Shown in pieces: positions 10,387-34,558 of a stretch of DNA of 52,936 bases. The notes below the pieces were generated by a model that was not told where the DNA came from, did no database searches, and was given only the letters and a program-made list of their open reading frames with translations. Numbering within the stretch: position 1 is the first letter of the stretch; every line of letters begins with the position of its first letter. The position numbers and the translations under genes are program-made. Origin of the DNA: Escherichia phage JEP7; the sequence record MT764207.1; one strand, given 5' to 3'.

Positions 10387-10392
10387 CCACTA

Positions 10393-10421: not shown

Positions 10422-10453
10422 AAGCTGGCGCACCCAATAAGAGGATTCTCCAG

Positions 10454-11092
10454 ATGGCAAATCGTACTACAGCCAACCGTCCTGTTAAAGACGCAGACCT
10501 GCGTCAAGAGTCGGTTACTCAGTTCCCGTTAGCAAAGCCGACCAAGCTTGATGAGAACGGAAAATTCATTCCAACCCCAGTTACCGGTGTAACTGTTACC
10601 CCTAAAGCTAAGTCAATTGCTGTTGGTGAGTTTACTACTCTGACAGCAGCAGTAGCCCCGGCAGACGCAGATGACGTCACCGTATTGTGGGAAAGCGATA
10701 CACCTGCTAATGCAACTGTTGATGGTTCAGGTCGTGTTCAGGGTATCAAAGTAGGTTCAGCAACTATTACTGCTAAATCCAAGCTTGACCCTGCCAAAAC
10801 CGATACCGTAGCAATTACGGTAACTGCTCCGCCTGTAGCCGTCACTGGTGTTACGTTAGCGCCTAAGTCGCCCAGCGTTGTAGTAGGCTCTACTGTACAG
10901 CTGACTGCAACTGTGCTGCCTGCTGGCGCTACTAACAAAGCTGTTACCTACGAGTCCAATGACACGGCTAAAGCTACTGTTAGCGCTACCGGTCTGGTGA
11001 CTGGTAAAGCAGCTGGCGTCGTCACCATCACTGTCAAAACAGCTGATGGCAGCTTCACTGACACCGCGTCAGTAACTGTTACTGCTGAGTAA
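10454..11092 (+). CDS. Ig-like (BIG2) domain protein
   Basis: 212 aa with two repeats of the pattern VTGVT..PK...VGxT.QLTATV.P..AT...V.W.S....ATV...G.V.........TIT typical of bacterial Ig-like group 2 domains. Confidence 0.6.
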   Translation: MANRTTANRPVKDADLRQESVTQFPLAKPTKLDENGKFIPTPVTGVTVTPKAKSIAVGEFTTLTAAVAPADADDVTVLWESDTPANATVDGSGRVQGIKVGSATITAKSKLDPAKTDTVAITVTAPPVAVTGVTLAPKSPSVVVGSTVQLTATVLPAGATNKAVTYESNDTAKATVSATGLVTGKAAGVVTITVKTADGSFTDTASVTVTAE

Positions 11093-11103
11093 GGAGCTGA
11101 TTG

Positions 11104-13233
11104 ATGTCGCTTCCACTTAATGAGGTTGTCGACGTCCAGTTCAGTAAGAGCAACGGGGGTAAAGGTTTTACCCCCAATGTTCCGCTGGAAGGTATAATGC
11201 TTTCTAACTACGAGTACTCAATCGTCGCGGGTGATGACCCTGTTCAGCTAGTTGTGCGTTACATTCCAACCAACGCTACTGAGCGTGGTATGGCATGGAA
11301 ATCTAGCGACCCGGACGTTATCACTGTTGATGAGCTCGGATTTGTGAAGCCACTGGCGGAAGGTGTTGCATACGTGACTGGTACGTCTGTTGACGGCGGT
11401 TATACAGTACGGGCAAAGTTTAACATTGCTCGGGCACCTATCCTTGTTGAATCTGTTACAGTGTCTCCCACAAGTGTGACGCTTGAAGAGGGCAAGACTC
11501 AACGCCTGACATACACCTATTTACCTGCTAATGCAGACAAACCTGATTTCTACTGGATTTCAGACGATGAGTCTGTTGCTATAGTTAACGACAGCGGGCT
11601 TGTCACTGCCATTGGAGATGGCGAAACAACTGTAAACGTGCAGTACGGTGTTGACAGCTCTATATTCGATAGCTGTACTGTAACTGTTATTCCGCCTGTT
11701 GTACACGTTACAGGAGTTGAGTTTCTTACTCAGTCGCCTATTAACGTTAATATCGGAAGCACAGCTGGTACTAGTATTCGTATATCGCCAGAAGATGCCA
11801 CTGACAAAACAGTGACATACGAAAGCAGTGCGCCTGATGTAGCAACTGTGGATACTGACGGAAATGTTACTGGTATTATAGCTGGTAATGCCACTGTTAC
11901 TGTTAAGACGAATGACGGTGATAAGACTGACACTCTTGACATTATAGTCAGGGTACCTGCTGTAAATGTTACAGGTGTAAGTATTGATGAAGGCGATACA
12001 GCTTCTATGGAGGTTGGTGACACGCTTCAGCTACATGCCACTGTGACTCCTGAAAATGCTACTGACCCGTCTGTTGTATGGAGTGCTCCTGTATCAGAAG
12101 TTGCGTCTGTGACTGAAGCTGGTTTGGTAACCGCTAACGCTGCAGGTTTAATTGATGTTACTGTTATCACTAATGATGGGAACTTTACTGATAGAATCGA
12201 GGTTAAAGTTACAGACCCCAGAATCGCAGTTACGGATGTTGCATGGGCTCCTGACTCTCCGACTAAAGTAAGTGCCGGCCATCAGGTGCAAACTAAAATT
12301 GTTATAACACCTGACAACGCAACTAACAAAAAAGTTAGCTACAATAGTTCAAACCCAGACGCTGTTACTGTTGACACTAACGGAGTTATATACGGCCAAT
12401 CTCCTGGAACTTCGACTATTACAGTTACAACAGACGACGGTGGACTTGTTGCTTCGTTTGTAGCGACTTGCACAGAGGTGGCTGTTATTACACCAGATGG
12501 TCTTGGTGGTATTCCAGTAGGTGGTACTCAGCAGTTCACTTACACTGTTAACCAGTCTGACGCTGAGCTGACTAATATTCGTTATGAGTCTGCTGACCCA
12601 GCTATTGCAACTGTTGATTCATCAGGCGTTGTAACTGGTGTTGCTAGCGGCGGATGTAACATCTGGATTTACGCAACTAGTAATGGTGCTGACATTAGCG
12701 CAGCTACTTGGGCACAAATTTCTGAGAGGGTACAGGTCTATCCGCAGTATGCTGAATGGCTTGTGGGTAACACCAAACAACTTGATGTTGAGATCTATCC
12801 GTCGGACTCTAAGAGCGTTACTGTTACTTATAGCTCGTCAGATGACTCTATAATTAGTGTAGATGCAAATGGCTTGATGACTGCTAAGTCTGAAGGTTCA
12901 GCAACTATTACTGCTAACGTTGTAATGAACGGTGTTGCTGCTTCTGGTACAACATCTCCTTACGTGTCTGAGCTTTCTGTTACTACGGATTCGCTGCCTG
13001 CACTTACTGTTGGTAACACGCAGCAGCTCGTTGTAACTGTTAGACCTGAATACGCTAAGACAGACGCAGGCTATAGCATTCAGTATACAACTACAGACGA
13101 TACTGTCGCTACTGTAAGTAATGCTGGTGTTATTACTGGTGTTGGTAGTGGTGGATGTCGTATTGGTGCCACAGTAACTGTGAGAAACGCTACAGCGTCG
13201 GACAGCTCTTATCAGTCCGTCGATGCAGCATAA
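11104..13233 (+). CDS. multi-domain Ig-like (BIG2) repeat protein
   Basis: about 709 aa with at least six tandem Ig-like repeats of the same pattern; ATG at 11104 with AGGAG RBS (track starts at a TTG at 11101). Confidence 0.6.
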   Translation: MSLPLNEVVDVQFSKSNGGKGFTPNVPLEGIMLSNYEYSIVAGDDPVQLVVRYIPTNATERGMAWKSSDPDVITVDELGFVKPLAEGVAYVTGTSVDGGYTVRAKFNIARAPILVESVTVSPTSVTLEEGKTQRLTYTYLPANADKPDFYWISDDESVAIVNDSGLVTAIGDGETTVNVQYGVDSSIFDSCTVTVIPPVVHVTGVEFLTQSPINVNIGSTAGTSIRISPEDATDKTVTYESSAPDVATVDTDGNVTGIIAGNATVTVKTNDGDKTDTLDIIVRVPAVNVTGVSIDEGDTASMEVGDTLQLHATVTPENATDPSVVWSAPVSEVASVTEAGLVTANAAGLIDVTVITNDGNFTDRIEVKVTDPRIAVTDVAWAPDSPTKVSAGHQVQTKIVITPDNATNKKVSYNSSNPDAVTVDTNGVIYGQSPGTSTITVTTDDGGLVASFVATCTEVAVITPDGLGGIPVGGTQQFTYTVNQSDAELTNIRYESADPAIATVDSSGVVTGVASGGCNIWIYATSNGADISAATWAQISERVQVYPQYAEWLVGNTKQLDVEIYPSDSKSVTVTYSSSDDSIISVDANGLMTAKSEGSATITANVVMNGVAASGTTSPYVSELSVTTDSLPALTVGNTQQLVVTVRPEYAKTDAGYSIQYTTTDDTVATVSNAGVITGVGSGGCRIGATVTVRNATASDSSYQSVDAA

Positions 13234-13319: not shown

Positions 13320-14459
13320 ATGCCGTTGAATGTAAACCAGATTGTAAACGTTCAACTGAACAACACTCCAACTGGTATCAGCAAAGGTGACTTCGGTAAG
13401 CTGGCTCTTTTAACTCAGGACCCTGGCACTGCTTTTCCTGACAGCGAAAACGGACACTATGTTGAAATCGGCAGCTACTCTGAAGCCGAGTCTTATTGGG
13501 GTACTGGTTCAGTTGTGCTTGGCGCGTTGAAGATTTTCTTTGCACAATCTCCGCGTCCTCGTTCAGTAGTTATCGCCTCATGGAACAACACCTCTACTCT
13601 GGATGCGGCTATTAAAGCATTCAACGATGTGTACCCTGACTGGTATGTTCTGCGTCCGCTCCCACCTACTGGTGAGCTGTCTGACGATGACATCGATTTG
13701 CTGGCGTCAACTGTTGCTGCTTACGACAAAAAGCGTTGCAGCTATACTACCACTAAAGCAACTCATATTGAAAACAGCGACTCCAACCCGATTAAAGTTC
13801 TGGCTGGTAAAGGCTACAACAATATGTGGCTTCAGTACGATAAGAACAACCAGCACTACGCAGACATCTCTGCTATGGCGCGTGCTCTGTCTGTTAACTT
13901 CTCTGGTAACCGCACCACTATTACCATGAAGTTCAAACAAGAGCCTGGTATTACACCGAACAACACTTTAACGCTTACTGAAGCTAACAAGTGTAAAGCG
14001 CTGGGTATTAACTGGTACACCTACTACAGCACCTTTGCTATGCTTGCAGAAGGTACTGTCCTTGGTACGTCCAAGCCGCCGCGCTTCTGGGATGAAGTAC
14101 ACGGTCTAGACTGGTTCTGTAATGCAGTTCAGACTTACGTCTTCAACTCAATCGCTACGTCACCCACGAAGGTGCCGCAGACGAACAAAGGTCACGAGCG
14201 CCTTACCGGTGCTGCAGCTGTTGCTTGTCAGCAGGCTGTCGACAACGGCTTGGTTGCGCCTGGTATCTGGTACGGTGATGAGTTTGGTACACTGTCTTAT
14301 GGTGACCGACTCGAAACAGGTTTCTACATCTACATCCCTGACGTAGATGACCAGCCTCTGGATGAGCGTGAAGCTCGTCAGGCCGTTGTAATGCAAATCG
14401 CGATTAAGCTGGCTGGTGCAATCCACTCCAGCGACATCCTGATTAACTTCACTCGCTAA
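13320..14459 (+). CDS. tail sheath protein (putative)
   Basis: 379 aa, first gene of tail block, followed by a tube-sized gene, a frameshifted chaperone and the tape measure gene; assignment by gene order. Confidence 0.4.
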   Translation: MPLNVNQIVNVQLNNTPTGISKGDFGKLALLTQDPGTAFPDSENGHYVEIGSYSEAESYWGTGSVVLGALKIFFAQSPRPRSVVIASWNNTSTLDAAIKAFNDVYPDWYVLRPLPPTGELSDDDIDLLASTVAAYDKKRCSYTTTKATHIENSDSNPIKVLAGKGYNNMWLQYDKNNQHYADISAMARALSVNFSGNRTTITMKFKQEPGITPNNTLTLTEANKCKALGINWYTYYSTFAMLAEGTVLGTSKPPRFWDEVHGLDWFCNAVQTYVFNSIATSPTKVPQTNKGHERLTGAAAVACQQAVDNGLVAPGIWYGDEFGTLSYGDRLETGFYIYIPDVDDQPLDEREARQAVVMQIAIKLAGAIHSSDILINFTR

Positions 14460-14470
14460 GGAGCAGATCA

Positions 14471-14902
14471 ATGATCATCGATTCTTCTGAATGCGTGTTG
14501 AGCCTGAATGGTGTTCAGCTGTCCGACTGGGCAGACGGTGCCGATGTCATTGACGTGCAATGGGTGGACCCAGCTTCCACCTATCTTGCAGGCGCTGATG
14601 GCGGTGGTATCCAGATTATGAACCCGTCCAAAGCCATTAAGCTGACTATCAAAGTTAAGCAAAGTGGTCCGGACGCCAAATGGCTTAACGACCAATACAA
14701 CCTGCAGCGTAACAACATTCGTGGATTCGTCCCGTTTGTGCTGCAAGCTAAAGACCTGCTGAACCAGGATTTGGCATGGGGTAAAAAAGGTTACTTTACC
14801 GATGGTTCCCCGTGGACTCGTGGTAACGGCCATAACCCGACTACCTTCTCTATTGTGTTCCACCAAGGTGGCATGCAGTTGACTGAAGGCTTTGACCAGT
14901 AA
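14471..14902 (+). CDS. tail tube protein (putative)
   Basis: 143 aa, between sheath-sized gene and chaperone; synteny only. Confidence 0.4.
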   Translation: MIIDSSECVLSLNGVQLSDWADGADVIDVQWVDPASTYLAGADGGGIQIMNPSKAIKLTIKVKQSGPDAKWLNDQYNLQRNNIRGFVPFVLQAKDLLNQDLAWGKKGYFTDGSPWTRGNGHNPTTFSIVFHQGGMQLTEGFDQ

Positions 14903-14920
14903 CAATAAAGGAAAGCACAA

Positions 14921-15349
14921 ATGACTGAGCCCAAATCATTTGACATCGACGACGTAACGTACAACATGACACTCGCAAACGCGCTGCAAGCCTGGACAGT
15001 CCTGAAAAAAGCAGGTAAGCTGTTCAAAGGCATTGGCAACGCTGACATTGTGGGTAAAGACGGCAAAGTGGACGGTAAGAAAGCAATGCTGGTCCTGTTG
15101 GACGCTGTTCTGGAGAACGCAGGTTCTGACGAGATGACAGCTATTGAGGAATTAATCTTCCGCAATACTGTTGTTGTAGTTGATGGCAAACCGCGTAAGC
15201 TGTCTGACTGTAAAGACCAACACTTCAACGCATATCGTAGCCACATCTTCGGTGTGCTTAAGGAGGGATTGGTATATCAGTTCGCGGATTTTTTCAAAGG
15301 GAATGGCCTGTCAGGTCTAGCGGGTCTAGCCACGCCCTTGACGAAATAA
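14921..15349 (+). CDS. tail assembly chaperone (G-like, short form)
   Basis: 142 aa immediately upstream of tape measure gene; contains slippery heptamer T_TTT_TTC near its 3' end. Confidence 0.55.
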   Translation: MTEPKSFDIDDVTYNMTLANALQAWTVLKKAGKLFKGIGNADIVGKDGKVDGKKAMLVLLDAVLENAGSDEMTAIEELIFRNTVVVVDGKPRKLSDCKDQHFNAYRSHIFGVLKEGLVYQFADFFKGNGLSGLAGLATPLTK

Positions 15350-15531
15350 AACGCAAGCAACAGTCAGGGACGCAAGAAACTGACTGGTTCATTTGGCTTC
15401 CTATTCTCAAGGGTCATGTGACCCTTGCAGAATTAAAGTCGTCTTACAGCTTGTGTGATTTGTGCGACCTGCATATTGCTATTCTGGACTATGCCGAGTT
15501 AGAGGAAATCCATGGCGACCATAATCGATAG
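14921..15531 (+). CDS. tail assembly chaperone, -1 frameshift-extended form (GT-like)
   Basis: slippery site T_TTT_TTC at 15289-15295 in the zero frame; the -1 frame is open for 78 codons from 15295 to TAG at 15529-15531, filling the apparent gap before the tape measure gene. Confidence 0.5.
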
Positions 15532-17173
15532 CTTTCTGGTAACGCTTGAGAGTAAAGCCGATAGCGCAGGCTTTGACCTCTTCGACCAGCTGTCCCGCCG
15601 TTTTGTGATTACCCTCGGCGATGTAATCAATCTTGCTGAGCGTGCCGCTGGTGCGCTCGGTAGGATGTTTGCGCCTGCGTTAGAGGCTGACGTACTCGCC
15701 GCCAAGATTAAAGGCTTCGGCTACGACGTCGAATCGACGTGGAAAACGCTGATGGATATGTCTTTGCAAATGGGTACACCATTTCAAGAGGCACTAGACG
15801 GCTTTACTAAACTTAAAGCGTATGGCGTTGACCCGTTAAACGGTTCACTACAAATGCTCAAAACAATCACTGCTGCAACAGGCGGTGATTTGGCGCGTAC
15901 CATTGTTGCGTATGGCCAGGCAACTGCGATGGGTTCATTGCAGGGCCAGGAAAAGAACCAATTCATTAACGCCGGTGTTGACATCTGGGGCGCATTGTCC
16001 CGTTACACTGGTAAGAAGCTTGGCGAGCTTCAGGATATGATGCGGCAGAAGCAAATCACTGCCGACATACTGACTAGCGCGCTCAAACAAGAAGCCGAAC
16101 GTTTAAAACCAATTGCCCACGAAGTGTCGCAGACACTCAAAGCGCAGTTAACTAACCTGAGTACAATTTGGTATGCTGCTCGCTCTAAGATTACCCAGAC
16201 CCGAGTATGGGACGAGGTAACCAAAGGCGCGATAAATATGGTTAAGTCACTTACCGCAGTGCTTAACGATACCACACTTACTGCAGCATTTAAAAAGTTT
16301 GATGAAATTGTATTCAATACAATTGAAAATATAAAACGACTTATCTACGTTATCGGGGATAACTTCCCGTTAATGGTTGCAATAACTTCGTACGCACTAT
16401 TGGCACTTATTCCCGTGCTGACTAAGGTCGGCAATGCCTTTGTGGGTTTAGCTGCCAAAATACTTATGAACCCGCTTACGTGGATTGTACTTGCTATCGG
16501 CGCAGTTATTGCTGTACTCGCTGACCTCGATGATGCTCTGGCAGGACGTGAGACAGTTGTTAAGTGGTCAAAAGACGTTGTTGCTGCATGGGGAATTGTC
16601 AAGCAGTATATCGTAGTTATTGCAGACTTTATTCTGTCAATATTTGACGGCCGCTTATGGAACCGGCTCGGTAACTGGTGGCAAGGTTTCCTCGGCGAAG
16701 TTAAGCAAGGCATAGAGCAAATAAAGCTGTGGTTGTCTGAAGCACTTTACCAGCTGCCTGGCGGTAAGTTCCTGATGGCGTTGTTTGGTAAGCTCGATTC
16801 TACGCTTGGCTTTGCTGGCAACAAACTTGTGACAGGTGCTGAGGCCACTGTTAATGCTGTGTCGCCTACAACTGAGCAGGGCGGAAGCTTCTGGAGTAAG
16901 GCACTCAACTGGTCAATGCGTAACTTCAACCCTATCACAGGGGAGATGACAGCTGGGGGTCAGGCTATGCAGTCGGCGATAAATACTGCTAAGCAAAACC
17001 AGCAGCAGAACGCGACTGTTATCCACCAGGATAATAGCGTTAAAGTTGACGCTACTATTACCGGTGTACAGAACCCACAAGAAGTAGGTCGTGAGGTCAA
17101 TGACCAGGTCAAACAGGCGCAGAAAGAGAATGCTACTGTAAGGGCTAACAACAAAACGGCGGTAACACAATGA
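15512..17173 (+). CDS. tail tape measure protein
   Basis: 553 aa; Ala/Gln-rich helical protein with central hydrophobic segments (LMVAITSYALLALIPVL..., IVLAIGAVIAVLADL); directly after chaperone frameshift cassette. Confidence 0.65.
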   Translation: MATIIDSFLVTLESKADSAGFDLFDQLSRRFVITLGDVINLAERAAGALGRMFAPALEADVLAAKIKGFGYDVESTWKTLMDMSLQMGTPFQEALDGFTKLKAYGVDPLNGSLQMLKTITAATGGDLARTIVAYGQATAMGSLQGQEKNQFINAGVDIWGALSRYTGKKLGELQDMMRQKQITADILTSALKQEAERLKPIAHEVSQTLKAQLTNLSTIWYAARSKITQTRVWDEVTKGAINMVKSLTAVLNDTTLTAAFKKFDEIVFNTIENIKRLIYVIGDNFPLMVAITSYALLALIPVLTKVGNAFVGLAAKILMNPLTWIVLAIGAVIAVLADLDDALAGRETVVKWSKDVVAAWGIVKQYIVVIADFILSIFDGRLWNRLGNWWQGFLGEVKQGIEQIKLWLSEALYQLPGGKFLMALFGKLDSTLGFAGNKLVTGAEATVNAVSPTTEQGGSFWSKALNWSMRNFNPITGEMTAGGQAMQSAINTAKQNQQQNATVIHQDNSVKVDATITGVQNPQEVGREVNDQVKQAQKENATVRANNKTAVTQ

Positions 17174-18066
17174 GTGACATCTTTGCTGGAATTACTGATG
17201 CTGCCAACGACTTGTACCAAGAAGCCCGCGACAGACTCATGGGCGACGGTACGACCACCTTACGCTTCCGCAACTGCGGAGGCATTAAGATGGATGCTGT
17301 CACCAATGAGGAACATCAGTCTGACCTTGACATCGCTGACAATGAACTTGAGTCCGGGGCTAAGGCTTCGGACCATGCTGCAGTACAACCAAAAGTTATT
17401 ACTGTAACTGGCGTGGTAGTTGGTTATATCGACGAGTCAATTCAAGAGTCAACAATTAAGGATGTAACCGGTCTACGGTCTATGGATTTCTTGGATGATA
17501 TTCAGCTTCCACAGGTAGTGTCTACTGCGCTTGAAGGAACAAGGGACTTTGCTGTTAACAAGCTAGCATCCTTTATAGACTGGGGCGGTTTAGACGCTAC
17601 CATTTCACGCTCTTTAGTTCCATGGCTTCCTGACTTTAGTATAGCTGAACAGCTTAAGTCTTCGGACAATATGAGGATTGAACAGGTATACCGTACCTTG
17701 CTGGATTTACAGAAAAACGTTATCTACTGTGACGTTGACACTGGTATCTTCAAGTATACGAATATGCTTTTGAAGTCTGTTCGTGTTGTACAGGAGAAAG
17801 ACGGTTCAGCTACGTTTACCCTTACGTTCCGTGAAGTCATCGAAGTGCCGATTGTAGTTACAAACGCTGTAGCCGCTAAGTCGACAGGTCGCCCTGCTAA
17901 TAACGGCACTAAGAAAAGCGGACGTGCACAAGGACAGGGTGATGCCACCAGTAAGAAGGACATAAACACAACTACACCGATTAGCGAGAAACGTGTAAAC
18001 GATAACCGCGGTTTTGGTGTAACACTCGGTGACATGTTTGGCTTTAACTTACGAGGCATATTCTGA
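17170..18066 (+). CDS. tail/baseplate protein (putative)
   Basis: 298 aa ORF after tape measure gene; position only. Confidence 0.3.
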   Translation: MSDIFAGITDAANDLYQEARDRLMGDGTTTLRFRNCGGIKMDAVTNEEHQSDLDIADNELESGAKASDHAAVQPKVITVTGVVVGYIDESIQESTIKDVTGLRSMDFLDDIQLPQVVSTALEGTRDFAVNKLASFIDWGGLDATISRSLVPWLPDFSIAEQLKSSDNMRIEQVYRTLLDLQKNVIYCDVDTGIFKYTNMLLKSVRVVQEKDGSATFTLTFREVIEVPIVVTNAVAAKSTGRPANNGTKKSGRAQGQGDATSKKDINTTTPISEKRVNDNRGFGVTLGDMFGFNLRGIF

Positions 18067-18458
18067 TGATATTTACCACAACTGCTTTCCTTGACATTAT
18101 AGGTAATGATGGTTCTGGTATTTACGACTTGGAACCTACCTCCGAAGGTAAGCAATCAATATCAATTTCTATCGCTGGATATACGTATAACATTGAGTTG
18201 TACTATAACACGGTAGGTCAGCTCTGGCAGGCTACAGTGACTGACATATCAAGTAATGCTGTACTTTGTTCCAGTTATGCTTTACAATATGGGCGTATTG
18301 CTTTTGGTAACTGGGACACGCGTATAGCGTTGCTGGTAAGTGACAAATCCTCCAGCCGCATCGGTCCTATGACTACAGATGACATGGGAGGACGTTGCAG
18401 TGTCTACATCGTCGACAAAACAGCCTACCCGTCAGTTTGGCCGCGCGTTAAAGCTTGA
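18066..18458 (+). CDS. tail/baseplate protein (hypothetical)
   Basis: 130 aa; ATG overlaps upstream stop. Confidence 0.3.
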   Translation: MIFTTTAFLDIIGNDGSGIYDLEPTSEGKQSISISIAGYTYNIELYYNTVGQLWQATVTDISSNAVLCSSYALQYGRIAFGNWDTRIALLVSDKSSSRIGPMTTDDMGGRCSVYIVDKTAYPSVWPRVKA

Positions 18459-19359
18459 GGTCAGCAACGGTAAAGATGAAGGCATAATCATCTCAAATCT
18501 TCGTGTTACCTTTGACATTCAAAAGGGTAACACGAAGCATCCAAACAAAGCGACAATCACAGTGTTCAACTTGACTGAATCCAACCGTTATAAGTTGGCG
18601 TCAGGTACCTGGGATTACGTCCGTCTCTCTGTGGGTTACGGTCTTGACAACATAGTTTATCGTTTGATATTCGAAGGCGATATTACTCGTGCTAACGACC
18701 AACGAAACGGCCTTGACATTCAGACTGTTCTCGAATGCGGCGATGCCCGTAAATCTTACAACGATGGCTTTGTTAATACGACGCTGGCTGCTGGCTCTAC
18801 GTATGACAGTGTTGTTGACGTTTGCCTGGCTAGTATGCCAAGCGTTGAAGAAGGGTACGTCTGCCTTGACAGCAACAAACCAGCTTTCCTGAGAGCACGT
18901 ACTCTGTTCGGACAAACGCACAGTGTACTCGACCAGGTTGCTGCTGCCAACAAGGCTACCTGGTCTATACAAGACAATAAACTTAATATCATTCCTAATG
19001 ACTCTGTTACTGACTATGACGTTGTTGTGCTGTCAGAATCGTCTGGCATGATTGGTGCTCCTCGCGGCACAGACAAAGGTCTTGAGGTTACTTGCAACCT
19101 GAATCCTACTCTGGCCATTGGTGGTCTTGTACAAGTAAATTCTATGTTTACACAGTACAACGGACAGTATAAAATCGACACTATAAGATTTCGGGGTGAC
19201 AATAAACCGAAAGGACCGTGGCGTGCTGACTTGACGGTTCTTGGCGGACAGTTCGCGAAGAAAGTTCGTCGACTCAAGAAGCCACGCAAACTGTCGAAGA
19301 TTGAGTACGACTATGTTACTGAACCCGGTGTTGACCATACAGTAGGCGGAGGTAGCTGA
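18400..19359 (+). CDS. baseplate hub / tail protein (putative)
   Basis: GTG at 18400 preceded by GGGAGGA RBS (track ORF starts at ATG 18379, same frame); about 319 aa. Confidence 0.3.
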   Translation: MSTSSTKQPTRQFGRALKLEVSNGKDEGIIISNLRVTFDIQKGNTKHPNKATITVFNLTESNRYKLASGTWDYVRLSVGYGLDNIVYRLIFEGDITRANDQRNGLDIQTVLECGDARKSYNDGFVNTTLAAGSTYDSVVDVCLASMPSVEEGYVCLDSNKPAFLRARTLFGQTHSVLDQVAAANKATWSIQDNKLNIIPNDSVTDYDVVVLSESSGMIGAPRGTDKGLEVTCNLNPTLAIGGLVQVNSMFTQYNGQYKIDTIRFRGDNKPKGPWRADLTVLGGQFAKKVRRLKKPRKLSKIEYDYVTEPGVDHTVGGGS

Positions 19360-20006
19360 TGTCAGCTATTGATTATAATACAGCAACACTTGACGAGGCC
19401 ATTGAAGCTGCACTGTTTGCCGCAATGATTGGTAAGCGCCACTGTTTACCTGGTCGTATAGTATCGTTTAACAGTGACCTACAGACTGTTGTTGTTGAGC
19501 CTATGGTTAGCGCCGAAAACGAAGATGGTTCAATGAGACCACTACCACCAGCAGCTGATGTTCCTTTATTCCAGCTAGGCGGTGGTGATTTTGTTATAAC
19601 GCTTGAACCAAAGAAAGGCGACCCGTGCTTACTTCTTGTTGCCGACAGATGTATTGACGTATGGTATGAGCTGGCTGAAAACGCTATACCAGGTGACTTC
19701 CGACAGAATGACCTGTCAGACTGCTTCTGTCTTGTGGGCTTCAGACCTAAGCCTCTGAAGATAACAAACTGGATGGAAGGCGTAACTATCCGTAAGGTTG
19801 ACGGAAGTCACTATATCAATATTAATAATGCTGGCAAGGTATCGATAAAGGCTACAGTAGTGGACTTGCTTGATACACCAACACTTAATGCACCAAACAC
19901 AGAAGCCAAGTTTAAAGAAGTTGACATTGGCGGCGTTAAGATGTCCAAACACAGACACCAAGAAAATGGTGACGGTGGCGGTATTACTAATGGCCCGCAA
20001 AACTAG
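19359..20006 (+). CDS. baseplate spike protein (gpV-like, putative)
   Basis: 215 aa, His-rich C-terminus (KHRHQENGDGGG); synteny with W- and J-like genes. Confidence 0.35.
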   Translation: MSAIDYNTATLDEAIEAALFAAMIGKRHCLPGRIVSFNSDLQTVVVEPMVSAENEDGSMRPLPPAADVPLFQLGGGDFVITLEPKKGDPCLLLVADRCIDVWYELAENAIPGDFRQNDLSDCFCLVGFRPKPLKITNWMEGVTIRKVDGSHYININNAGKVSIKATVVDLLDTPTLNAPNTEAKFKEVDIGGVKMSKHRHQENGDGGGITNGPQN

Positions 20007-20016
20007 GTAACCCACA

Positions 20017-20388
20017 ATGCGAACTAGACGACTCGATTCAAACTGGGACTGGAATTTTGGGCGTGGCCGACTTGACTACGCCGATACGTCTGAGTCCATT
20101 GAACAACGCATCGTGCAGATACTCCGCTGTTATACTATGGACTGGGTACATGACCTGGACTATGGTATTGACTGGTTCGGACTAATGGAGAAGCCTGTTC
20201 GATGGGCTGACCTGGAAGCTGCAATCAAGACAGCAATACTTGCGGAGTATGGAGTTAGTTCTATCGAGAGCTTTACCCTAAGCTTCGACCCTGACTCACG
20301 TCACGCTGTTTATTCGGTTGAGGTTAATGATATTTACCACAACACAACCTCTATTAACAGAAGTATTAATTTAACCGGAGAAAACTGA
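20017..20388 (+). CDS. baseplate wedge protein (gpW/gp25-like, putative)
   Basis: 123 aa small protein immediately upstream of J-like gene. Confidence 0.35.
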   Translation: MRTRRLDSNWDWNFGRGRLDYADTSESIEQRIVQILRCYTMDWVHDLDYGIDWFGLMEKPVRWADLEAAIKTAILAEYGVSSIESFTLSFDPDSRHAVYSVEVNDIYHNTTSINRSINLTGEN

Positions 20389-21560
20389 TGGGCTCTGTAA
20401 CTAGCACAGGCTATGTTCCCGTCAAGCTCGACGACTGGATCAGCAGATTCGAAACGCTCTTCCGTCGTGTGTACGGCGCGGATATTGATTTGTCAGCTAA
20501 GTCTGCTGACGGACAAATGGTTGGTATTCTGGCGCAGATGTTTGCAGACCAGGACGAGCAAGTTGCAATTCTGTTTTCTATGCTTGACCCTAACCAGGCA
20601 TCTGGTGTATACGTAGACCAGTTCCTTGCCTACGTAGCGCTTCAGCGTAAAGGCGAGATGTCAACGCTGTTGACCAGGGTTAAGATCGAAGGTGACCGTA
20701 ACACTATTATACGTACTCCTTACTATGTAACTGACAGCTCGAATAACGTGTACCAGCTTAACTCCACTGTTGCGCTGGATGATAACGGTGTAGTCGAAAC
20801 AAGCTTCAGTTCTGTTAAGACTGGCCGCTTTGTCGTACTTGCAAACGATGAGCTTAAACCACAGACCATCGTTTCTGGCGTGCGTAAAGTTACCAACATG
20901 CAAGTGTCATCTGGCGGTGCGTCCACTGAGCTCGACTCTGAGGCAATAGACCGGGCGTATAACTCTTACGGCAAACCTGGCACGAACAGCTTAGACGGTA
21001 TTGTTGCTGAGATTCGTCAGATGACTGATGTTATCGCGTGTAACGGTTACGAGAACGAAGAAGATACTCGGGACCCGTTAACTGGCTTACCTCCTCACAG
21101 TATGCAGATTGTTGTGGATGGTGGTTCGCCTGCTGCTATTGCTGACTGTATCTTCCGTCGTAAAACTAATGGCTGTAAGCAGATTGGCACTGTGTCTTAT
21201 CAGATTACGGATAAGTCAGGTACACAGCGCACAATGAAATGGAGTCAGCCTACTTATGTTGAGGCTTATGCTTCACTCGTTGTAGCCCGTAAGGAACTGT
21301 TTACCGACGTTTCCGAGGAACTTATTAAGAATGCTATTCTGTCCAAGGTATACAATATCGGTGAAGAGGTATCAACCTACGAACTGGGTCAGCTAATTCA
21401 AGAAGCGAATGGCGTAAGCCCTAACTTCTACATCAAGACTTTCTTTGTGGGTAAATCAGCTAATCCGTCGACAGATACGATTCTGCGTATCACTGCTCTT
21501 GAGCGTGCAATATTCGCTGCAGACCGTATCACTATTGCAGTGGTGAATGCTGATGGCTGA
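20388..21560 (+). CDS. baseplate J-like protein (putative)
   Basis: 390 aa; position between W-like and I-like genes upstream of tail fibre. Confidence 0.4.
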   Translation: MGSVTSTGYVPVKLDDWISRFETLFRRVYGADIDLSAKSADGQMVGILAQMFADQDEQVAILFSMLDPNQASGVYVDQFLAYVALQRKGEMSTLLTRVKIEGDRNTIIRTPYYVTDSSNNVYQLNSTVALDDNGVVETSFSSVKTGRFVVLANDELKPQTIVSGVRKVTNMQVSSGGASTELDSEAIDRAYNSYGKPGTNSLDGIVAEIRQMTDVIACNGYENEEDTRDPLTGLPPHSMQIVVDGGSPAAIADCIFRRKTNGCKQIGTVSYQITDKSGTQRTMKWSQPTYVEAYASLVVARKELFTDVSEELIKNAILSKVYNIGEEVSTYELGQLIQEANGVSPNFYIKTFFVGKSANPSTDTILRITALERAIFAADRITIAVVNADG

Positions 21561-22206
21561 ATATCATAAACTACTTATTCAACAGTACGCTGATAAACCA
21601 AAAGCTGTTGCAACTATTAAGGGCTTCGATGATGCAATTCAAGGTATCTGGGACGGCGCCCAACAAGTTGTTGATAGCCTTAATATAGATAAAGCTTTTG
21701 GTAAAGGTCTTGATAATGTTGCAGCCCGCGTCGGTGCATCTCGTGTTCTCAAGAAAGGCGTAGACCGTAAGTTCTTCGGCTTTACCAACAAAGTACCAGA
21801 CGTGCTTGGCTTCGGTGGTTCGTCTGGTAATAAAGGTGGCCCGTTCTATCGCTACGGTGCATCAGTTTGGGACCCGGTAATTCTTGACGACATTGACCTG
21901 CGTACTTACATCAAGATGAAAATCTGGAAGAACATGCAAGACGGTACTATGCCGTATCTAATTGACTTCCTGATTGAATTCTTCGGAATGAATAACTTCG
22001 TTATAACTGACAACGAAGATATGACAATGACTCTGGAGATATACAGTACTCTGACTCCGCTTAAACAAGTGTTGATTCAGAACTATGATATTCTTCCGCG
22101 CCCCACAGGGGTGAAGATTGAACTTAACACGAGCGTTGACGTCACGGATAGTCTGTACCGTTACGCTACTGTAAACTTACCAGCACAGGTGAATGTATAT
22201 GGCTGA
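21547..22206 (+). CDS. baseplate/tail protein (gpI-like, putative)
   Basis: 219 aa; overlaps both neighbours; synteny. Confidence 0.3.
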   Translation: MLMAEYHKLLIQQYADKPKAVATIKGFDDAIQGIWDGAQQVVDSLNIDKAFGKGLDNVAARVGASRVLKKGVDRKFFGFTNKVPDVLGFGGSSGNKGGPFYRYGASVWDPVILDDIDLRTYIKMKIWKNMQDGTMPYLIDFLIEFFGMNNFVITDNEDMTMTLEIYSTLTPLKQVLIQNYDILPRPTGVKIELNTSVDVTDSLYRYATVNLPAQVNVYG

Positions 22207-23533
22207 TGTACAAACAAGACCCGATAACGACATCTTCGCCAGCTCCGCGGGTACTGGTGAACTGCTGCCGTTCGGTGACCTTGCTCGTGGCTGGGGTGCA
22301 ACCCTTGGCTACTCAGAAGGTATTCCTCCGATGGAGTGGTTTAACTTTATCGGTAACCGTACTGACAAAGGTATCCACTACATCCTTCAGCAGGGTGTTG
22401 ATATATGGGTAGAAACTGAGACCTACCCGGTTGGTGCACTGGTTAAAGTTAACGCCGACAATATGCTGTACCGTTGTCTGGTGCAGAACATTAATATGCC
22501 ACCGTCTGCTAACCCTACACAGTGGCGTCCTGTACTTGACCTGACAGCTGCATCTGCTGCAGCACGACAGGTTGGTAAAGCCTCTGGTAACGTAATCCAG
22601 GTCGGTGCATTTGGCTTAGGCGGCAACGCTGAGGTAGTTACTAATGCTAACAGCATTGTAAACGACGGTATCTACCAGCTTCCAGCGTCAGGTACGGGCG
22701 GACCTACTAACGGCGTTGAGACTGAGATTCTGCATATCAACTGGGATGAGAAAAACGCTTCACAGTGGGGACGCACCAAGGGTAAGCGCGTAATAGCCAT
22801 GCGCGAGAAGGTTAACAATACCTGGGGCGGATGGTCATACTCTTACGGGCCTGACAATAAACCTACTGCCTCTGAGCTGGGTATTAATCAGGACTTCATC
22901 CCTATGGATGGTTCTGACTCAATCCGAGGTAACTTAGGTACTGTCGGCTGGCTGCATATTGCACGTACTACTTCCGACTTGCTACGTGCTGCTAACTCCG
23001 CCGGCGTAGGTACTGTTGAGTACTCCGGTAACATCGCAGGCGGTACTGCTGTTCAGGAGTTGCTGACTTCGGTTTCTGTTGCGGCTAACAGTAATGTTAT
23101 CACTGCGGCTCGCTGGGGTTCTGTGCCTATGTCACATATCCAGCACCTTCTTACGGCAGGTGGCGCTACCCAGATTAACATGGCGGTATGTCGCCCTGGT
23201 GGTATTGCCGACCGCCGTACAGTAGCTTTGCAGGTGGATGGCCTTAACAGCCGAGTAACTACCACAAATAGCTTTATTTTATGCGAGAATGGTGTTAGAG
23301 TATATTCACCTAACAACCCGCAGCCTATCGATACTTCAGCCGGTAACGTTCGGGGTATTCGACTCGGCGCTCGTATTGCTGCTGGTGTATCCGAGTCAAC
23401 GTTCTACCCTGGGCATGTAATGACTGGCTGGCGCTTCGGCAATAAGAAAGAGCTGCGTGGTGGTACATACTGGTCAGCGCCGTTACAGTATTATATCAAC
23501 GGCACTTGGATTAACGTAAGCAACGTATCGTAA
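22193..23533 (+). CDS. tail fibre protein
   Basis: 446 aa, Gly/Ala/Thr/Ser-rich; followed by two tail-fibre-assembly-like genes. Confidence 0.5.
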   Translation: MYMADVQTRPDNDIFASSAGTGELLPFGDLARGWGATLGYSEGIPPMEWFNFIGNRTDKGIHYILQQGVDIWVETETYPVGALVKVNADNMLYRCLVQNINMPPSANPTQWRPVLDLTAASAAARQVGKASGNVIQVGAFGLGGNAEVVTNANSIVNDGIYQLPASGTGGPTNGVETEILHINWDEKNASQWGRTKGKRVIAMREKVNNTWGGWSYSYGPDNKPTASELGINQDFIPMDGSDSIRGNLGTVGWLHIARTTSDLLRAANSAGVGTVEYSGNIAGGTAVQELLTSVSVAANSNVITAARWGSVPMSHIQHLLTAGGATQINMAVCRPGGIADRRTVALQVDGLNSRVTTTNSFILCENGVRVYSPNNPQPIDTSAGNVRGIRLGARIAAGVSESTFYPGHVMTGWRFGNKKELRGGTYWSAPLQYYINGTWINVSNVS

Positions 23534-25985: not shown

Positions 25986-26002
25986 AGGCCCCTTCATTTA
26001 TT
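25974..26002. terminator. bidirectional terminator hairpin between convergent gene blocks
   Basis: GGGGCC-GAGTGAA-GGCCCC hairpin flanked by A-run upstream and TTCATTTATT downstream, at the junction of + strand lysis genes and - strand genes. Confidence 0.55.
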
Positions 26003-26500: not shown

Positions 26501-26515
26501 ATCATAGACCTTTAA

Positions 26516-34555: not shown

Positions 34556-34558
34556 CTT

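What the first reader, a model, noticed from the sequence alone, without database searches (positions are those of the whole stretch)
13320..23533. Mosaic layout: Mu/P2-like contractile-tail and baseplate gene order joined to a T4/T7-style replication and nucleotide-metabolism complement
The tail block follows sheath, tube, frameshifted chaperone, tape measure, hub, spike, W-like, J-like, I-like, fibre, fibre-assembly order, typical of temperate Mu/P2-type myoviruses. The rest of the genome is that of a virulent phage (family-A polymerase, primase-helicase, thymidylate-synthase-fold enzyme, DHFR, dCMP deaminase) with no integrase or repressor. This combination is uncommon.
Basis: inference. 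Interest (0 to 1): 0.35.

Follow-up and report, generated by a model that had tools for sequence, protein, structure and literature searches.

The report
Rosemountvirus contractile tail gene module
This is the ordinary tail-building gene block of a well-known group of virulent Salmonella/E. coli phages (genus Rosemountvirus); the genome really is a patchwork of modules shared with different phage groups, but that patchwork is old, is typical of phages, and recurs in several other virulent phage lineages.

Summary
The window is a complete ~53 kb Rosemountvirus genome. It is colinear with Escherichia phage vB_EcoM_PiR, and the tail block is 95-99% identical to about 45 deposited phages. The described gene order is real: sheath, tube, chaperone with a conserved -1 frameshift, tape measure, hub, spike, W-, J- and I-like wedge proteins, and fibre. 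The two fibre-assembly genes lie just past the stated end. The order matches Mu but not P2.

By sequence, the closest relatives of the tail are not Mu or P2. They are the temperate lambdoid myovirus Aaphi23 (25-46% aa identity, collinear over 14 genes) and the structurally solved "simple baseplate" phages XM1, Pam3, E217 and phi92.

The polymerase/helicase arm is instead collinear with a cyanophage. The head resembles siphovirus heads. An accessory tail cassette is shared with large myophages. Only the fibre tip and its chaperone resemble Mu S/U and P2 H/G.

No integrase or repressor was found, and 5,426 E. coli genomes hold no chromosomal copy.

So "mosaic" and "virulent" are supported. "Uncommon" is not: Chaseviridae, Jedunavirus and a cyanophage show the same pairing. 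This is already known and of low interest.

The parts
5490..5978 (+). Neck1 / tail-completion protein; left edge of the Aaphi23-like neck-tail module
   Evidence: 32% identity to Aaphi23 ORF49 and 39% to an XM1 ORF. The BP63 RefSeq homologue is named 'tail completion or Neck1 protein'. The adaptor gene upstream (4990-5490) has no Aaphi23 match.
5978..6355 (+). Small neck protein
   Evidence: 31% identity to Aaphi23 ORF50 (4e-10), collinear.
6249..6806 (+). Tail (neck) terminator
   Evidence: Pfam Phage_tail_terminator_9, 4e-17. 28% identity over 160 aa to Aaphi23 ORF51.
6806..13233 (+). Accessory tail cassette of four genes (207-aa fibre-like protein 6806-7429; 985-aa tail protein 7429-10386; Ig-domain proteins 10454-11092 and 11104-13233). 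It sits between the terminator and sheath genes and is absent at this position in Aaphi23.
   Evidence: PHROGs tail fibre, tail protein and Ig-domain families. Pfam Big_2 repeats. No Aaphi23 match. The 985-aa protein has full-length 29-47% homologues in 532 phage records, including jumbo, FelixO1-like, PVP-SE1-like and rV5-like myophages.
13320..14459 (+). Tail sheath
   Evidence: Pfam DUF3383 1e-72. phrog_205 'tail sheath' 9e-94. PDB XM1 sheath gp6 2e-29 and Pam3 sheath 1e-10. 40% identity to the Aaphi23 sheath.
14471..14902 (+). Tail tube
   Evidence: Weak Pfam KPP10_Orf10 match (24.4 bits against a 25-bit cut-off). Pam3 tube E=0.003. 44% identity to Aaphi23 ORF53. The AF2 model (pLDDT 72.6) has tail-tube proteins of Pam3, Bas63, Sf14, E217, XM1, Pa193 and PhiTE as its top 13 Foldseek matches, probability 1.00.
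14921..15349 (+). Tail assembly chaperone, zero-frame product (142 aa)
   Evidence: Pfam Phage_TAC_9 4e-33. 43% identity to Aaphi23 ORF54.
15289..15295 (+). Slippery heptamer T_TTT_TTC for the -1 programmed frameshift
   Evidence: It is the only in-frame X_XXY_YYZ heptamer in the gene. It is invariant in BP63, ZCSE2, KE25 and fHy-Eco03, and Aaphi23 has T_TTT_TTT at the homologous codon.
14921..15531 (+). Predicted chaperone frameshift product (125 aa in frame 0 plus 78 aa in frame -1, about 203 aa); the stop at 15529-15531 overlaps the tape-measure start
   Evidence: The -1 ORF is open for 78 codons. The extension is conserved as protein across relatives down to about 67% nucleotide identity and in Aaphi23. 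For Aaphi23 the predicted end, 33403, equals the annotated ORF54-54' join end. The frameshift is not annotated in PiR or BP63.
15512..17173 (+). Tape measure protein
   Evidence: Pfam TMP_3 3e-20. phrog_29251. No BLAST match to the Aaphi23 tape measure protein.
17170..18066 (+).
   Evidence: Pfam Dit_like 5e-22. PDB Pam3 tube initiator gp17, phi92 gp135 and 9ndy 'tube initiator protein'. 39% identity to Aaphi23 ORF56. It occupies the position of Mu gp43, which is the tube initiator in the Mu structure (PMC11915804).
18066..18458 (+).
   Evidence: Pfam Pam3_gp18 plug 1e-11. 25% identity to Aaphi23 ORF57. The S144 homologue was detected in virions by MS (PMC7432712).
18379..19359 (+). Baseplate hub
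   Evidence: Pfam E217_GP41 7e-17. phrog_196 'baseplate hub' 3e-78. PDB Pam3 hub gp19, phi92 gp137 and E217 gp41. 44% identity to Aaphi23 ORF58.
19359..20006 (+). Central membrane-puncturing spike
   Evidence: Pfam PF18352 6e-25. PDB Pam3 spike gp20, 4ru3 puncturing protein and E217 spike gp43. hhalign 92% probability to the Mu gp45 / P2 gpV C-terminus.
20017..20388 (+). Sheath initiator (W / gp25-like, baseplate wedge 1)
   Evidence: phrog_120 8e-29. PDB XM1 sheath initiator gp15 1e-7 and Pam3 gp21 1e-6. Sub-threshold Pfam Sheath_initiator and GPW_gp25 matches.
20388..21560 (+). J-like wedge protein (baseplate wedge 2)
   Evidence: phrog_6 2e-31. PDB E217 gp44 Baseplate_J, XM1 gp16 and Pam3 gp22. 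hhalign 90% probability over 299 columns to Mu gp47 / P2 gpJ.
21547..22206 (+). DUF2612 wedge protein in the position of P2 gpI / Mu gp48 (baseplate wedge 3)
   Evidence: Pfam DUF2612 4e-39. PDB XM1 baseplate wedge gp17 6e-11. 42% identity to Aaphi23 ORF62. No profile link to Mu gp48 or P2 gpI was found.
22193..23533 (+). Tail fibre, itself chimeric: an Aaphi23/XM1-like N-terminus (aa 2-111) and a Mu S / P2 H-like C-terminal tip (aa ~353-445)
   Evidence: tblastn gives 46% identity to Aaphi23 ORF63 over aa 2-111, 37% to Mu S over aa 373-443 and 34% to P2 H over aa 353-445. The S144 paper models the homologue on Mu gpS (PMC7432712).
23543..24592 (+).
   Evidence: Pfam Caudo_TAP 2.5e-13 and 0.0045. 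phrog_136 2e-43 and 3e-31. The first is 26-27% identical to Mu U and P2 G.
26001..44452 (.). Replication / nucleotide-metabolism arm. Minus strand: PolA 26516-28483, clamp-like processivity factor 28483-29478, ThyA 29509-30393, MazG-like 30393-30986, DEAD helicase 32830-34500, Cas4-like exonuclease 34559-35437, dCMP deaminase 35421-35906, DUF669 SSB 35968-36513, Sak4-like ATPase 36621-37505. Plus strand: primase(-helicase) 41924-44452.
   Evidence: Pfam, PHROGs and NCBIfam thymidylate synthase above its cut-off. PolA, helicase, exonuclease, SSB and Sak4 are collinear with Synechococcus phage Yong-L2-223 at 27-47% identity.
50192..51486 (+). DHFR-like gene (50192-50983) and dNMP/thymidylate kinase-like gene (50980-51486)
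   Evidence: Weak Pfam DHFR_1 match (28.7 bits against a 25-bit cut-off, no stretch passing on its own) and weak dNK/Thymidylate_kin matches. The BP63 homologue is annotated as thymidylate kinase.

Best explanation
The region is most of the tail-morphogenesis operon of a virulent myovirus of the genus Rosemountvirus. It encodes a complete 'simple baseplate' contractile tail of the kind solved for Pam3, XM1, E217 and Mu.

Proposed working, inferred from those structures:
- Assembly. Hub, spike and the tape-measure C-terminus form the central core. The tube initiator and plug sit on the core. Six wedges (sheath initiator, J-like and DUF2612 proteins) surround it and carry the fibres. Tube and then sheath polymerise to the length set by the tape measure.
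- Chaperones. The tape measure is chaperoned by the chaperone and its -1 frameshift product, made at T_TTT_TTC. The fibre tip is folded by two Mu-U-like chaperones.
- Infection. Fibre binding opens the baseplate and triggers sheath contraction.

Shown here: the gene identities, their order, the conserved frameshift signal with its conserved -1 extension, and the absence of lysogeny genes.

The genome around the block is an old, stable patchwork:
- the head is like those of ~40-45 kb siphoviruses
- the neck and tail come from the same stock as temperate lambdoid myoviruses (Aaphi23, SEN34)
- an accessory tail cassette is shared with large myophages
- the fibre tip and chaperone are like Mu S/U and P2 H/G
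- the PolA-centred replication arm is shared with a cyanophage and with siphoviruses

The direction and date of the exchanges are inferred, not shown.
For: Identity of the phage. The tail block is 95-99% identical at 100% coverage to 40 Rosemountvirus records. The window is colinear with OM313461.1.

Component assignments. They rest on Pfam/PHROGs, solved-structure homologues and a tube model with fold search.

Frameshift. The heptamer is invariant and the -1 extension is conserved. The prediction reproduces the annotated Aaphi23 ORF54-54' end.

Module affinities.
- Fourteen neck-tail genes are collinear with Aaphi23 at 25-46% identity, and nothing else in Aaphi23 matches.
- Five replication genes are collinear with Yong-L2-223 at 27-47%.
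- Mu and P2 match only the fibre tip and one chaperone.
- The capsid protein's nearest out-of-clade relatives are phiES15 and siphoviruses.
- The 985-aa protein is shared with large myophages.

Age and stability of the patchwork. About 60 records carry both the tail block and the polymerase. GC content is even across the modules, 0.45-0.50.

Virulence. No integrase or repressor domains were found. There is no chromosomal copy in 5,426 E. coli genomes.

Literature. TEM of PiR shows a contractile tail (PMC9343928). S144 virion proteomics detected the homologues from sheath to fibre and noted a Mu-like fibre and chaperones (PMC7432712). The polymerase's affinity to Mesyanzhinovviridae has been noted (PMC11946847).
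Against: - No virion structure exists for this genus, so stoichiometry and mechanism are transferred from Pam3, XM1, E217 and Mu.
- The frameshift product has not been observed. No downstream stimulatory RNA structure was detected (z = 0.26).
- The tape measure and the fibre shaft have no detectable relatives in the comparator genomes.
- Best-hit comparisons are not phylogenies, so the number and direction of module exchanges are not resolved.
- Many small early ORFs have no family match, so an unconventional repressor cannot be excluded.
- Two E. coli assemblies carry complete circular copies labelled as plasmids. That sits awkwardly with a strictly lytic lifestyle.
Confidence: 0.85

Rival explanations
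1. The layout results from a recent recombination between a temperate Mu/P2-type myovirus and a virulent T7/T4-type phage, which would make this genome an unusual fresh hybrid.
For: The tail and replication modules have different nearest relatives outside the clade. The fibre tip and its chaperone resemble Mu and P2.
Against: Identity to the nearest out-of-clade tail (Aaphi23) is only 25-46% aa, and to the nearest replication genes 27-47%. About 60 independently isolated phages, down to 60-80% nucleotide identity, carry both modules together. GC content is even across the junctions. Mu and P2 themselves share almost no detectable sequence with the tail.
Confidence: 0.03
2. The phage is not strictly virulent. 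It can persist as an extrachromosomal circular episome (carrier state or phage-plasmid) without an integrase.
For: Two complete circular ~53 kb copies are deposited as plasmids of E. coli isolates from Switzerland and China. There is no chromosomal copy, which fits an episome rather than integration.
Against: The pABW_A19c annotation shows the ordinary phage gene set with no partition, plasmid-replication, repressor or integrase genes. No such Pfam domains occur in the window. Published members are described as lytic. Co-assembly of a contaminating or carried phage is the simpler reading, and only 2 of 5,426 genomes show it.
Confidence: 0.08
3. There is no real mosaicism. The different best hits only reflect uneven database sampling and different evolutionary rates of tail and replication genes within one vertically inherited genome.
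For: Best-hit analysis is not a phylogeny. Yong-L2-223 also has a Mu-order contractile tail next to the homologous replication arm, so a common ancestor with both modules is conceivable if its tail diverged beyond BLAST detection.
Against: Aaphi23 and SEN34 share the tail but carry lambda-type O/P replication, cI/cro and integrase instead. Mesyanzhinovviridae siphoviruses share the polymerase but have non-contractile tails (PMC11946847). The capsid protein's relatives are siphoviruses. At least some module exchange is needed to explain these distributions.
Confidence: 0.07

Closest known systems
Genus Rosemountvirus (e.g. Salmonella phages BP63, yarpen, nenneke; Escherichia phage vB_EcoM_PiR) and its sister genus Loughboroughvirus (S144, ZCSE2)
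   Same: Same genome length, gene content and order. The tail block is 95-99% identical to Rosemountvirus records and about 79% identical to Loughboroughvirus in the chaperone region. The window is colinear with PiR without indels over 50 kb.
   Different: It differs from the deposited PiR record by 1,386 substitutions in 50 kb. It carries an HNH endonuclease gene at 49891-50307 that BP63 lacks at that site.
Temperate myovirus Aaphi23 (Aggregatibacter) and Brunovirus SEN34
   Same: The neck-to-fibre module is collinear, gene for gene, at 25-46% aa identity with Aaphi23, including the chaperone frameshift at the homologous codon.
   Different: Aaphi23 and SEN34 have integrase, cI/cro-type regulation and lambda O/P replication. 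Their heads, tape measures and fibre tips are unrelated, and they lack the 6.5 kb accessory cassette between the terminator and sheath genes.
Structurally solved simple-baseplate myophages: Pam3, XM1, E217/Pa193, phi92
   Same: Every baseplate component has a sequence-detectable homologue in one or more of these structures: sheath, tube, tube initiator, plug, hub, spike, sheath initiator and two wedge proteins.
   Different: Identities are low (E-values from 1e-5 to 1e-29). The hosts, heads and replication genes are different. No structure of a Rosemountvirus tail exists.
Phage Mu tail module (gp39-gp50)
   Same: The gene order is identical: sheath, tube, chaperone, tape measure, tube initiator, hub, spike, three wedge proteins, fibre, fibre chaperone (component roles from PMC11915804). 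The fibre tip and chaperone are BLAST-detectable. The J wedge and spike are profile-detectable.
   Different: Mu has no separate plug gene. Sheath, tube, chaperone, initiator, hub, W and I give no signal in shallow profile comparison. Mu is a transposable temperate phage with transposase, repressor and an invertible G segment, none of which is present here.
Phage P2 tail genes
   Same: The same functional parts list, including a -1 frameshifted chaperone (E/E+E'). Fibre tip H and chaperone G are BLAST-detectable.
   Different: The gene order differs: in P2 the baseplate/fibre operon V-W-J-I-H-G precedes and is separated from the sheath/tube operon FI-FII-E-T-U-D. P2 also has integrase, an immunity repressor and rolling-circle replication.
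Other virulent myoviruses with the same tail order and their own replication genes: Chaseviridae (vB_EcoM_4HA13), Jedunavirus (1611E-K2-1), Synechococcus phage Yong-L2-223
   Same: They have the same sheath-to-fibre order and a similar genome size (48-66 kb), and encode their own DNA polymerase, helicase and primase. No integrase is annotated in any of them. 4HA13 adds a T7-type RNA polymerase, a 5'-3' exonuclease, a ligase, thymidylate synthase and dNMP kinase. The Yong-L2-223 replication arm is collinear with the window at 27-47% identity.
   Different: Their tails are only distantly related (sheath 23-32% identity over part of its length) or not BLAST-detectable (Yong-L2-223). Their heads and early genes differ.

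Membership tests
Genus Rosemountvirus | High nucleotide identity over the genome to recognised members (the ICTV genus guideline of about 70% over full length is cited from my own knowledge) | tested here: met
   The tail block is 95-99% identical at 100% coverage to 40 records classified as Rosemountvirus. There are 1,386 mismatches and no indels against 50 kb of OM313461.1, i.e. 97.2% identity.
Simple-baseplate contractile tail (Pam3 / XM1 / E217 / Mu type) | Sheath and tube proteins | tested here: met
   Sheath: DUF3383 1e-72, plus the XM1 and Pam3 sheaths. Tube: the AF2 model matches contractile-phage tube proteins, probability 1.00.
Simple-baseplate contractile tail (Pam3 / XM1 / E217 / Mu type) | Central core: tape measure, tube initiator, hub, spike | tested here: met
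   TMP_3, Dit_like / Pam3 gp17, E217_GP41 / Pam3 gp19, PF18352 / Pam3 gp20.
Simple-baseplate contractile tail (Pam3 / XM1 / E217 / Mu type) | Wedge made of a sheath initiator (W/gp25-like), a J-like protein and a third wedge protein that carries the fibre | tested here: met
   XM1 gp15 / Pam3 gp21; E217 gp44 / XM1 gp16; XM1 gp17 / DUF2612.
Simple-baseplate contractile tail (Pam3 / XM1 / E217 / Mu type) | Virions with a contractile tail seen by microscopy | not testable with these tools
   The literature reports it: TEM of PiR and IntR shows a contractile tail (PMC9343928), and S144 is a myovirus by TEM with these proteins in virions (PMC7432712).
G/GT-type programmed -1 frameshift of tail assembly chaperones | An in-frame X_XXY_YYZ heptamer near the 3' end of the chaperone gene, with a -1 ORF extending to the tape-measure gene | tested here: met
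   T_TTT_TTC at 15289-15295, 57 nt before the zero-frame stop. The -1 ORF has 78 codons and ends at 15531, overlapping the TMP start at 15512.
G/GT-type programmed -1 frameshift of tail assembly chaperones | Conservation of the signal and of the -1 frame product among relatives | tested here: met
   The heptamer is identical in BP63, ZCSE2, KE25 and fHy-Eco03, and is T_TTT_TTT in Aaphi23. The extension aligns as protein, and the predicted Aaphi23 end equals the annotated join end.
G/GT-type programmed -1 frameshift of tail assembly chaperones | Detection of the fusion protein | not testable with these tools
   No proteomic data spanning the slip site were available.
Mu-like phage (Muvirus) tail module | Mu gene order L-M-gp41-gp42-gp43-gp44-gp45-gp46-gp47-gp48-S-U | tested here: met
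   The order is the same, apart from one extra small plug gene.
Mu-like phage (Muvirus) tail module | Sequence homology of components to Mu proteins | tested here: inconclusive
   BLAST finds only the fibre tip and one chaperone. hhalign with shallow profiles finds J at 90% and the spike C-terminus at 92%, with seven other components below 1%. Deeper profiles or fold comparison were not run.
Mu-like phage (Muvirus) tail module | Transposase-based replication, repressor c, invertible G segment | tested here: not met
   No transposase, repressor or invertase domains were found.
P2-like phage (Peduoviridae) tail genes | P2 operon layout: V-W-J-I-H-G separate from and upstream of FI-FII-E-E'-T-U-D | tested here: not met
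   In the window, sheath and tube come first and are contiguous with the baseplate genes.
T7-like replication complement | Family A DNA polymerase | tested here: met
   DNA_pol_A 1.5e-63 plus a 3'-5' exonuclease domain.
T7-like replication complement | Single-subunit RNA polymerase and a gp4-type primase-helicase | tested here: not met
   No RNA polymerase domain was found in any scanned ORF. The 842-aa protein matches phrog_3022 'DNA primase', has only a sub-threshold DUF3987 match and has no solved homologue. The polymerase is paired with a beta-clamp-like processivity factor.
T4-like nucleotide-metabolism set | Thymidylate synthase, dCMP deaminase, DHFR, dNMP kinase | tested here: met
   ThyA 2e-62, above the TIGR03284 cut-off. 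dCMP_cyt_deam_1 2e-21. The DHFR_1 and kinase matches are weak. This is a functional set, not evidence of kinship with T4, and no family B polymerase is present.
Temperate phage | Integrase or transposase, immunity repressor, and occurrence as a prophage | tested here: not met
   No such domains were found. There are 0 chromosomal places in 5,426 complete E. coli genomes. Caveat: two circular 'plasmid' copies exist.

The most novel reading that the evidence does not exclude
Rosemountviruses may not be strictly lytic. Complete circular copies sit as 'plasmids' in two unrelated E. coli isolate assemblies, with no chromosomal copies anywhere. So this virulent-looking chimera, whose tail shares ancestry with temperate lambdoid myoviruses, might persist as an episome or carrier state without an integrase, a partition system or a recognisable repressor.
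Probability: 0.08. Interest if true: 0.45.

Novelty: already known. Interest (0 to 1): 0.12.

Why it matters
It matters little as a discovery. The phage belongs to a described genus used in Salmonella and E. coli biocontrol work. Its tail type is structurally understood from Pam3, XM1, E217 and Mu, and modular mosaicism is a textbook property of tailed phages.

The useful outputs are practical:
1. A corrected and complete parts list for the tail operon, including the tube initiator and plug genes. Most deposited records label these genes 'hypothetical', 'tail fiber' or 'structural protein'.
2. A conserved -1 frameshift in the chaperone gene that the PiR and BP63 records do not annotate.
3. A clear map of which phage groups share which module. 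This is relevant to classifying these phages and to engineering host range, because the fibre is a domain chimera with an exchangeable Mu/P2-type tip and matching chaperones.

Tried and rejected
- Rfam scan of the whole window: no family reached its gathering score.
- Repeat search of the whole window: only short two-copy matches of no evident meaning, and no terminal repeats within the window.
- tRNA scan: none found.
- Search for an RNA structure downstream of the slippery heptamer: no better than shuffled sequence (z = 0.26).
- Profile-profile comparison of the window tail families with Mu/P2. There was no signal for sheath, tube, chaperone, initiator, hub, W or I. The alignments held only 2-5 sequences, so this is a limit of sensitivity and not evidence against remote homology.
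- Solved-structure sequence searches for the 985-aa tail protein and for the primase(-helicase): no matches.
- A LysM domain in the tube initiator. A PHROG endolysin family matched residues 38-87, but Pfam gave no LysM hit and the alignment was uninformative. I left this unresolved.
- An assembly artefact or chimera. I rejected this because about 60 independent isolates share the layout.
- The idea that the window is simply OM313461.1. I rejected this because there are 1,386 substitutions in 50 kb.
- A plasmid-like lifestyle. I judged it unlikely because pABW_A19c has no partition or replication-initiator genes.

Full report
**What the window is.** The 52,936-base window is a whole phage genome. 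The finding's region (13320-23533) matches 60 phage records. Of these, 53 cover at least 80% of it and 40 are 95-99% identical; nearly all are Salmonella or Escherichia phages of the genus Rosemountvirus. Gene coordinates coincide exactly with Escherichia phage vB_EcoM_PiR (OM313461.1, 52,936 bp). The window is nevertheless not that record: over the first 50 kb there are 1,386 substitutions and no indel. The substitutions look natural. They are patchy (0-80 per kb), 845 of 1,038 coding differences fall at third codon positions, and transitions outnumber transversions 1003 to 383. There are no tRNAs and no Rfam matches.

**Checking the observation.** All ORFs from 13320 to 24592 are on the + strand and tightly packed. 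I checked each assignment with profile searches and with sequence matches to solved tail structures:
- Sheath, 13320-14459: DUF3383 1e-72; phrog 'tail sheath' 9e-94; XM1 and Pam3 sheaths.
- Tube, 14471-14902.
- Chaperone, 14921-15349: Phage_TAC_9, 4e-33.
- Tape measure, 15512-17173: TMP_3.
- Tube initiator, 17170-18066: Dit_like; Pam3 gp17; phi92 gp135.
- Plug, 18066-18458: Pam3_gp18.
- Hub, 18379-19359: E217_GP41; Pam3 gp19; phi92 gp137.
- Spike, 19359-20006: PF18352; Pam3 gp20; E217 gp43.
- Sheath initiator, 20017-20388: XM1 gp15; Pam3 gp21.
- J-like wedge, 20388-21560: E217 Baseplate_J protein gp44; XM1 gp16.
- DUF2612 wedge, 21547-22206: XM1 gp17.
- Fibre, 22193-23533.
- Two Caudo_TAP fibre chaperones, 23543-24085 and 24089-24592.

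These rest. The tube was the weakest by sequence: its Pfam score was just under the cut-off, and the Pam3 tube matched at E = 0.003. I therefore modelled it (pLDDT 72.6, pTM 0.69). Its 13 best Foldseek matches in the PDB are all tail-tube proteins of contractile phages, at probability 1.00.

It omits the tube initiator and the plug, and the fibre-assembly genes lie just beyond the stated end.

**The frameshift.** The chaperone gene holds a single in-frame X_XXY_YYZ heptamer, T_TTT_TTC at 15289-15295, 57 nt before its stop. From there the -1 frame stays open for 78 codons to a stop at 15529-15531, overlapping the tape-measure start at 15512. The heptamer is identical in BP63, in the Loughboroughvirus ZCSE2, and in the much more divergent KE25 and fHy-Eco03 (about 67-69% nucleotide identity). 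Aaphi23 has T_TTT_TTT at the homologous codon. The -1 extensions align as proteins (…DWFIWLPI.KG.VTL.ELK..Y.L.DL…). For Aaphi23 my predicted end, 33403, is exactly the end of the annotated two-piece ORF54-54'. I found no downstream stimulatory structure. PiR and BP63 do not annotate the frameshift, and BP63 lists part of the extension as a separate small gene.

**Mu-like or P2-like?** The order equals that of Mu genes 39-50: sheath, tube, chaperone, tape measure, gp43, hub, spike, three wedge proteins, S, U. The recent Mu structure identifies gp43 as the tube initiator of a 'simple baseplate' shared with Pam3, E217, XM1 and Milano (PMC11915804). P2 is arranged differently, with V-W-J-I-H-G upstream of and apart from FI-FII-E-T-U-D.

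By sequence the link to Mu and P2 is thin. tblastn finds only the fibre tip (aa ~353-445; 34-37%) and the first fibre chaperone (26-27%). A shallow profile-profile comparison finds only the J wedge (90% probability, 299 columns) and the spike C-terminus (92%), with non-cognate controls all below 1%. The S144 paper had already noted the Mu-like fibre and chaperones (PMC7432712).

I compared all window proteins with six reference genomes.
- Neck and tail. Fourteen neck-to-fibre genes match Aaphi23 collinearly at 25-46% identity (sheath 40%, tube 44%, chaperone 43%, initiator 39%, hub 44%, W 42%, I 42%, fibre N-terminus 46%). Nothing else in Aaphi23 matches. Aaphi23 is a classical temperate phage with integrase, cI, cro, cII and lambda O/P replication. 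SEN34 (Brunovirus, with integrase) and XM1 match more weakly.
- Replication arm. Polymerase (47%), DEAD helicase (36%), Cas4-like exonuclease (30%), SSB (39%) and Sak4-like ATPase (27%) match Synechococcus phage Yong-L2-223 collinearly. That phage's tail is not BLAST-similar. A published analysis also links this polymerase to Mesyanzhinovviridae and Nanhaivirus siphoviruses (PMC11946847).
- Head. The capsid protein's nearest out-of-clade relatives are the UV-induced Cronobacter phage phiES15 (48.6%) and 43-45 kb siphoviruses.
- Accessory cassette. A four-gene, 6.5 kb cassette (6806-13233) lies between the terminator and sheath genes, where Aaphi23 has nothing. Its 985-aa protein has full-length homologues in jumbo, FelixO1-like, PVP-SE1-like and rV5-like myophages.
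- Fibre. The fibre gene is itself a chimera: an Aaphi23/XM1-like N-terminus, which presumably docks to the baseplate, and a Mu/P2-like tip with matching chaperones.

**Is the mosaic recent or unusual?** It is neither. Roughly the same 60 records carry the tail block, the sheath and the polymerase together, down to 60-80% identity. GC content is even across the junctions. Identities to out-of-clade relatives are all below 50%.

The same pairing of a Mu-order simple contractile tail with a phage-encoded replication apparatus, and no annotated integrase, recurs elsewhere:
- Chaseviridae: 4HA13 has a T7-type RNA polymerase, primase/helicase, DNA polymerase, 5'-3' exonuclease, ligase, thymidylate synthase and dNMP kinase.
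- Jedunavirus.
- Yong-L2-223.

The sheath family alone occurs in 593 phage records. 'Uncommon' is therefore not supported.

**Lifestyle.** Pfam scans of essentially all annotated ORFs and of further small ORFs found no integrase, recombinase, transposase, HTH repressor, partition or plasmid-replication domain. A 24.7 kb query spanning the tail and replication genes has no chromosomal match in 5,426 complete E. coli genomes. Two complete circular copies are, however, deposited as plasmids: pABW_A19c from wastewater in Basel and pYZ_2_1_2 from China. The PGAP annotation of the first shows only the normal phage gene set. Co-assembly of a carried or contaminating phage is the simplest reading, but a carrier state is not excluded.

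**'T4/T7-style'.** The functional set is present: PolA, a primase(-helicase), ThyA (above the curated TIGR03284 cut-off), a MazG-like pyrophosphohydrolase, dCMP deaminase, and weak DHFR and kinase matches. However, no single-subunit RNA polymerase and no family B polymerase was found. The polymerase sits next to a beta-clamp-like processivity factor. The primase has no solved relative. The label is a loose analogy and not a family membership.

**Verdict.** P2 order, close Mu/P2 kinship and rarity are not supported. The phage, its genus, its tail type and the principle of modular mosaicism are all already known. Interest is low.

Noticed in passing
window 1-50000 vs OM313461.1: The window has the same length and CDS coordinates as vB_EcoM_PiR but differs by 1,386 substitutions in 50 kb with not one indel. 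The substitutions look natural: patchy, mostly at third codon positions, with a transition bias. In the tail block several other phages (nenneke 98.8%, yarpen 98.4%) are closer than PiR (96.9%). Complete colinearity at 2.8% divergence is odd. It could reflect a reference-guided consensus or a revised record.
   Followed up: partly
window 13320-38000; NZ_CP067310.1 and NZ_JBVNBN010000003.1: Two complete circular ~53 kb Rosemountvirus genomes are deposited as plasmids of E. coli isolates (Basel wastewater; Heyuan, China), while none of 5,426 E. coli chromosomes holds a copy. The PGAP annotation of pABW_A19c shows no partition, plasmid-replication or integrase genes. The likely cause is a carried or contaminating phage, but a carrier state is not excluded.
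   Followed up: partly
window 14921-15531: The conserved -1 frameshift product of the tail assembly chaperone is not annotated in PiR or in the curated BP63 RefSeq record. BP63 and ZCSE2 list part of the extension as a separate small hypothetical gene.
   Followed up: yes
window 6806-13233: A four-gene accessory tail cassette (207-aa fibre-like protein, 985-aa 'tail protein', two Big_2 Ig-domain proteins of 212 and 709 aa) sits between the tail-terminator and sheath genes. The 985-aa protein has full-length 29-47% homologues in 532 records spanning jumbo, FelixO1-like, PVP-SE1-like and rV5-like myophages and ~40 kb phages. It has no Pfam or PDB sequence match, and its place in the virion is unknown.
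   Followed up: partly
window 40289-40777 (- strand): This DUF7173 protein lies among early/replication-arm genes on the minus strand. A 2026 paper (PMC12946066) proposes its homologue (gp38 of SD286) as a receptor-binding protein because refolded protein blocked adsorption, while the true fibre homologue (gp66) did not. The genomic context makes a virion receptor-binding role surprising.
   Followed up: no
window 49891-50307; NZ_CP067310.1 34894-35394: HNH homing-endonuclease genes sit at different sites in different relatives. The window has one upstream of the DHFR-like gene, where BP63 has none. pABW_A19c has one between the Cas4-like exonuclease and the DEAD helicase, plus a BRO-N gene next to the PDDEXK gene.
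   Followed up: partly
window 28483-29478 (- strand): A 331-aa protein immediately downstream of PolA matches phrog_947 'DNA polymerase processivity factor' (7e-48) and is annotated 'DNA polymerase beta subunit' in BP63. Yong-L2-223 has a 'DNA polymerase III subunit beta' gene in the same position. A family A polymerase paired with a clamp-like factor is not the T7 arrangement.
   Followed up: no
window 44000-50000: This is the lowest-GC stretch of the genome (0.39-0.42, against 0.45-0.50 elsewhere). It holds many small minus-strand ORFs without any family match and several gene-free gaps (44452-44936, 48525-49308). It probably contains the early region and control sequences.
   Followed up: no
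window 34527-34569 and 39279-39321: A 43-nt direct repeat (77% identity), AT-rich, lies just upstream of minus-strand genes. These positions correspond to intergenic sites where BP63 annotates sigma-70-like promoters.
   Followed up: no
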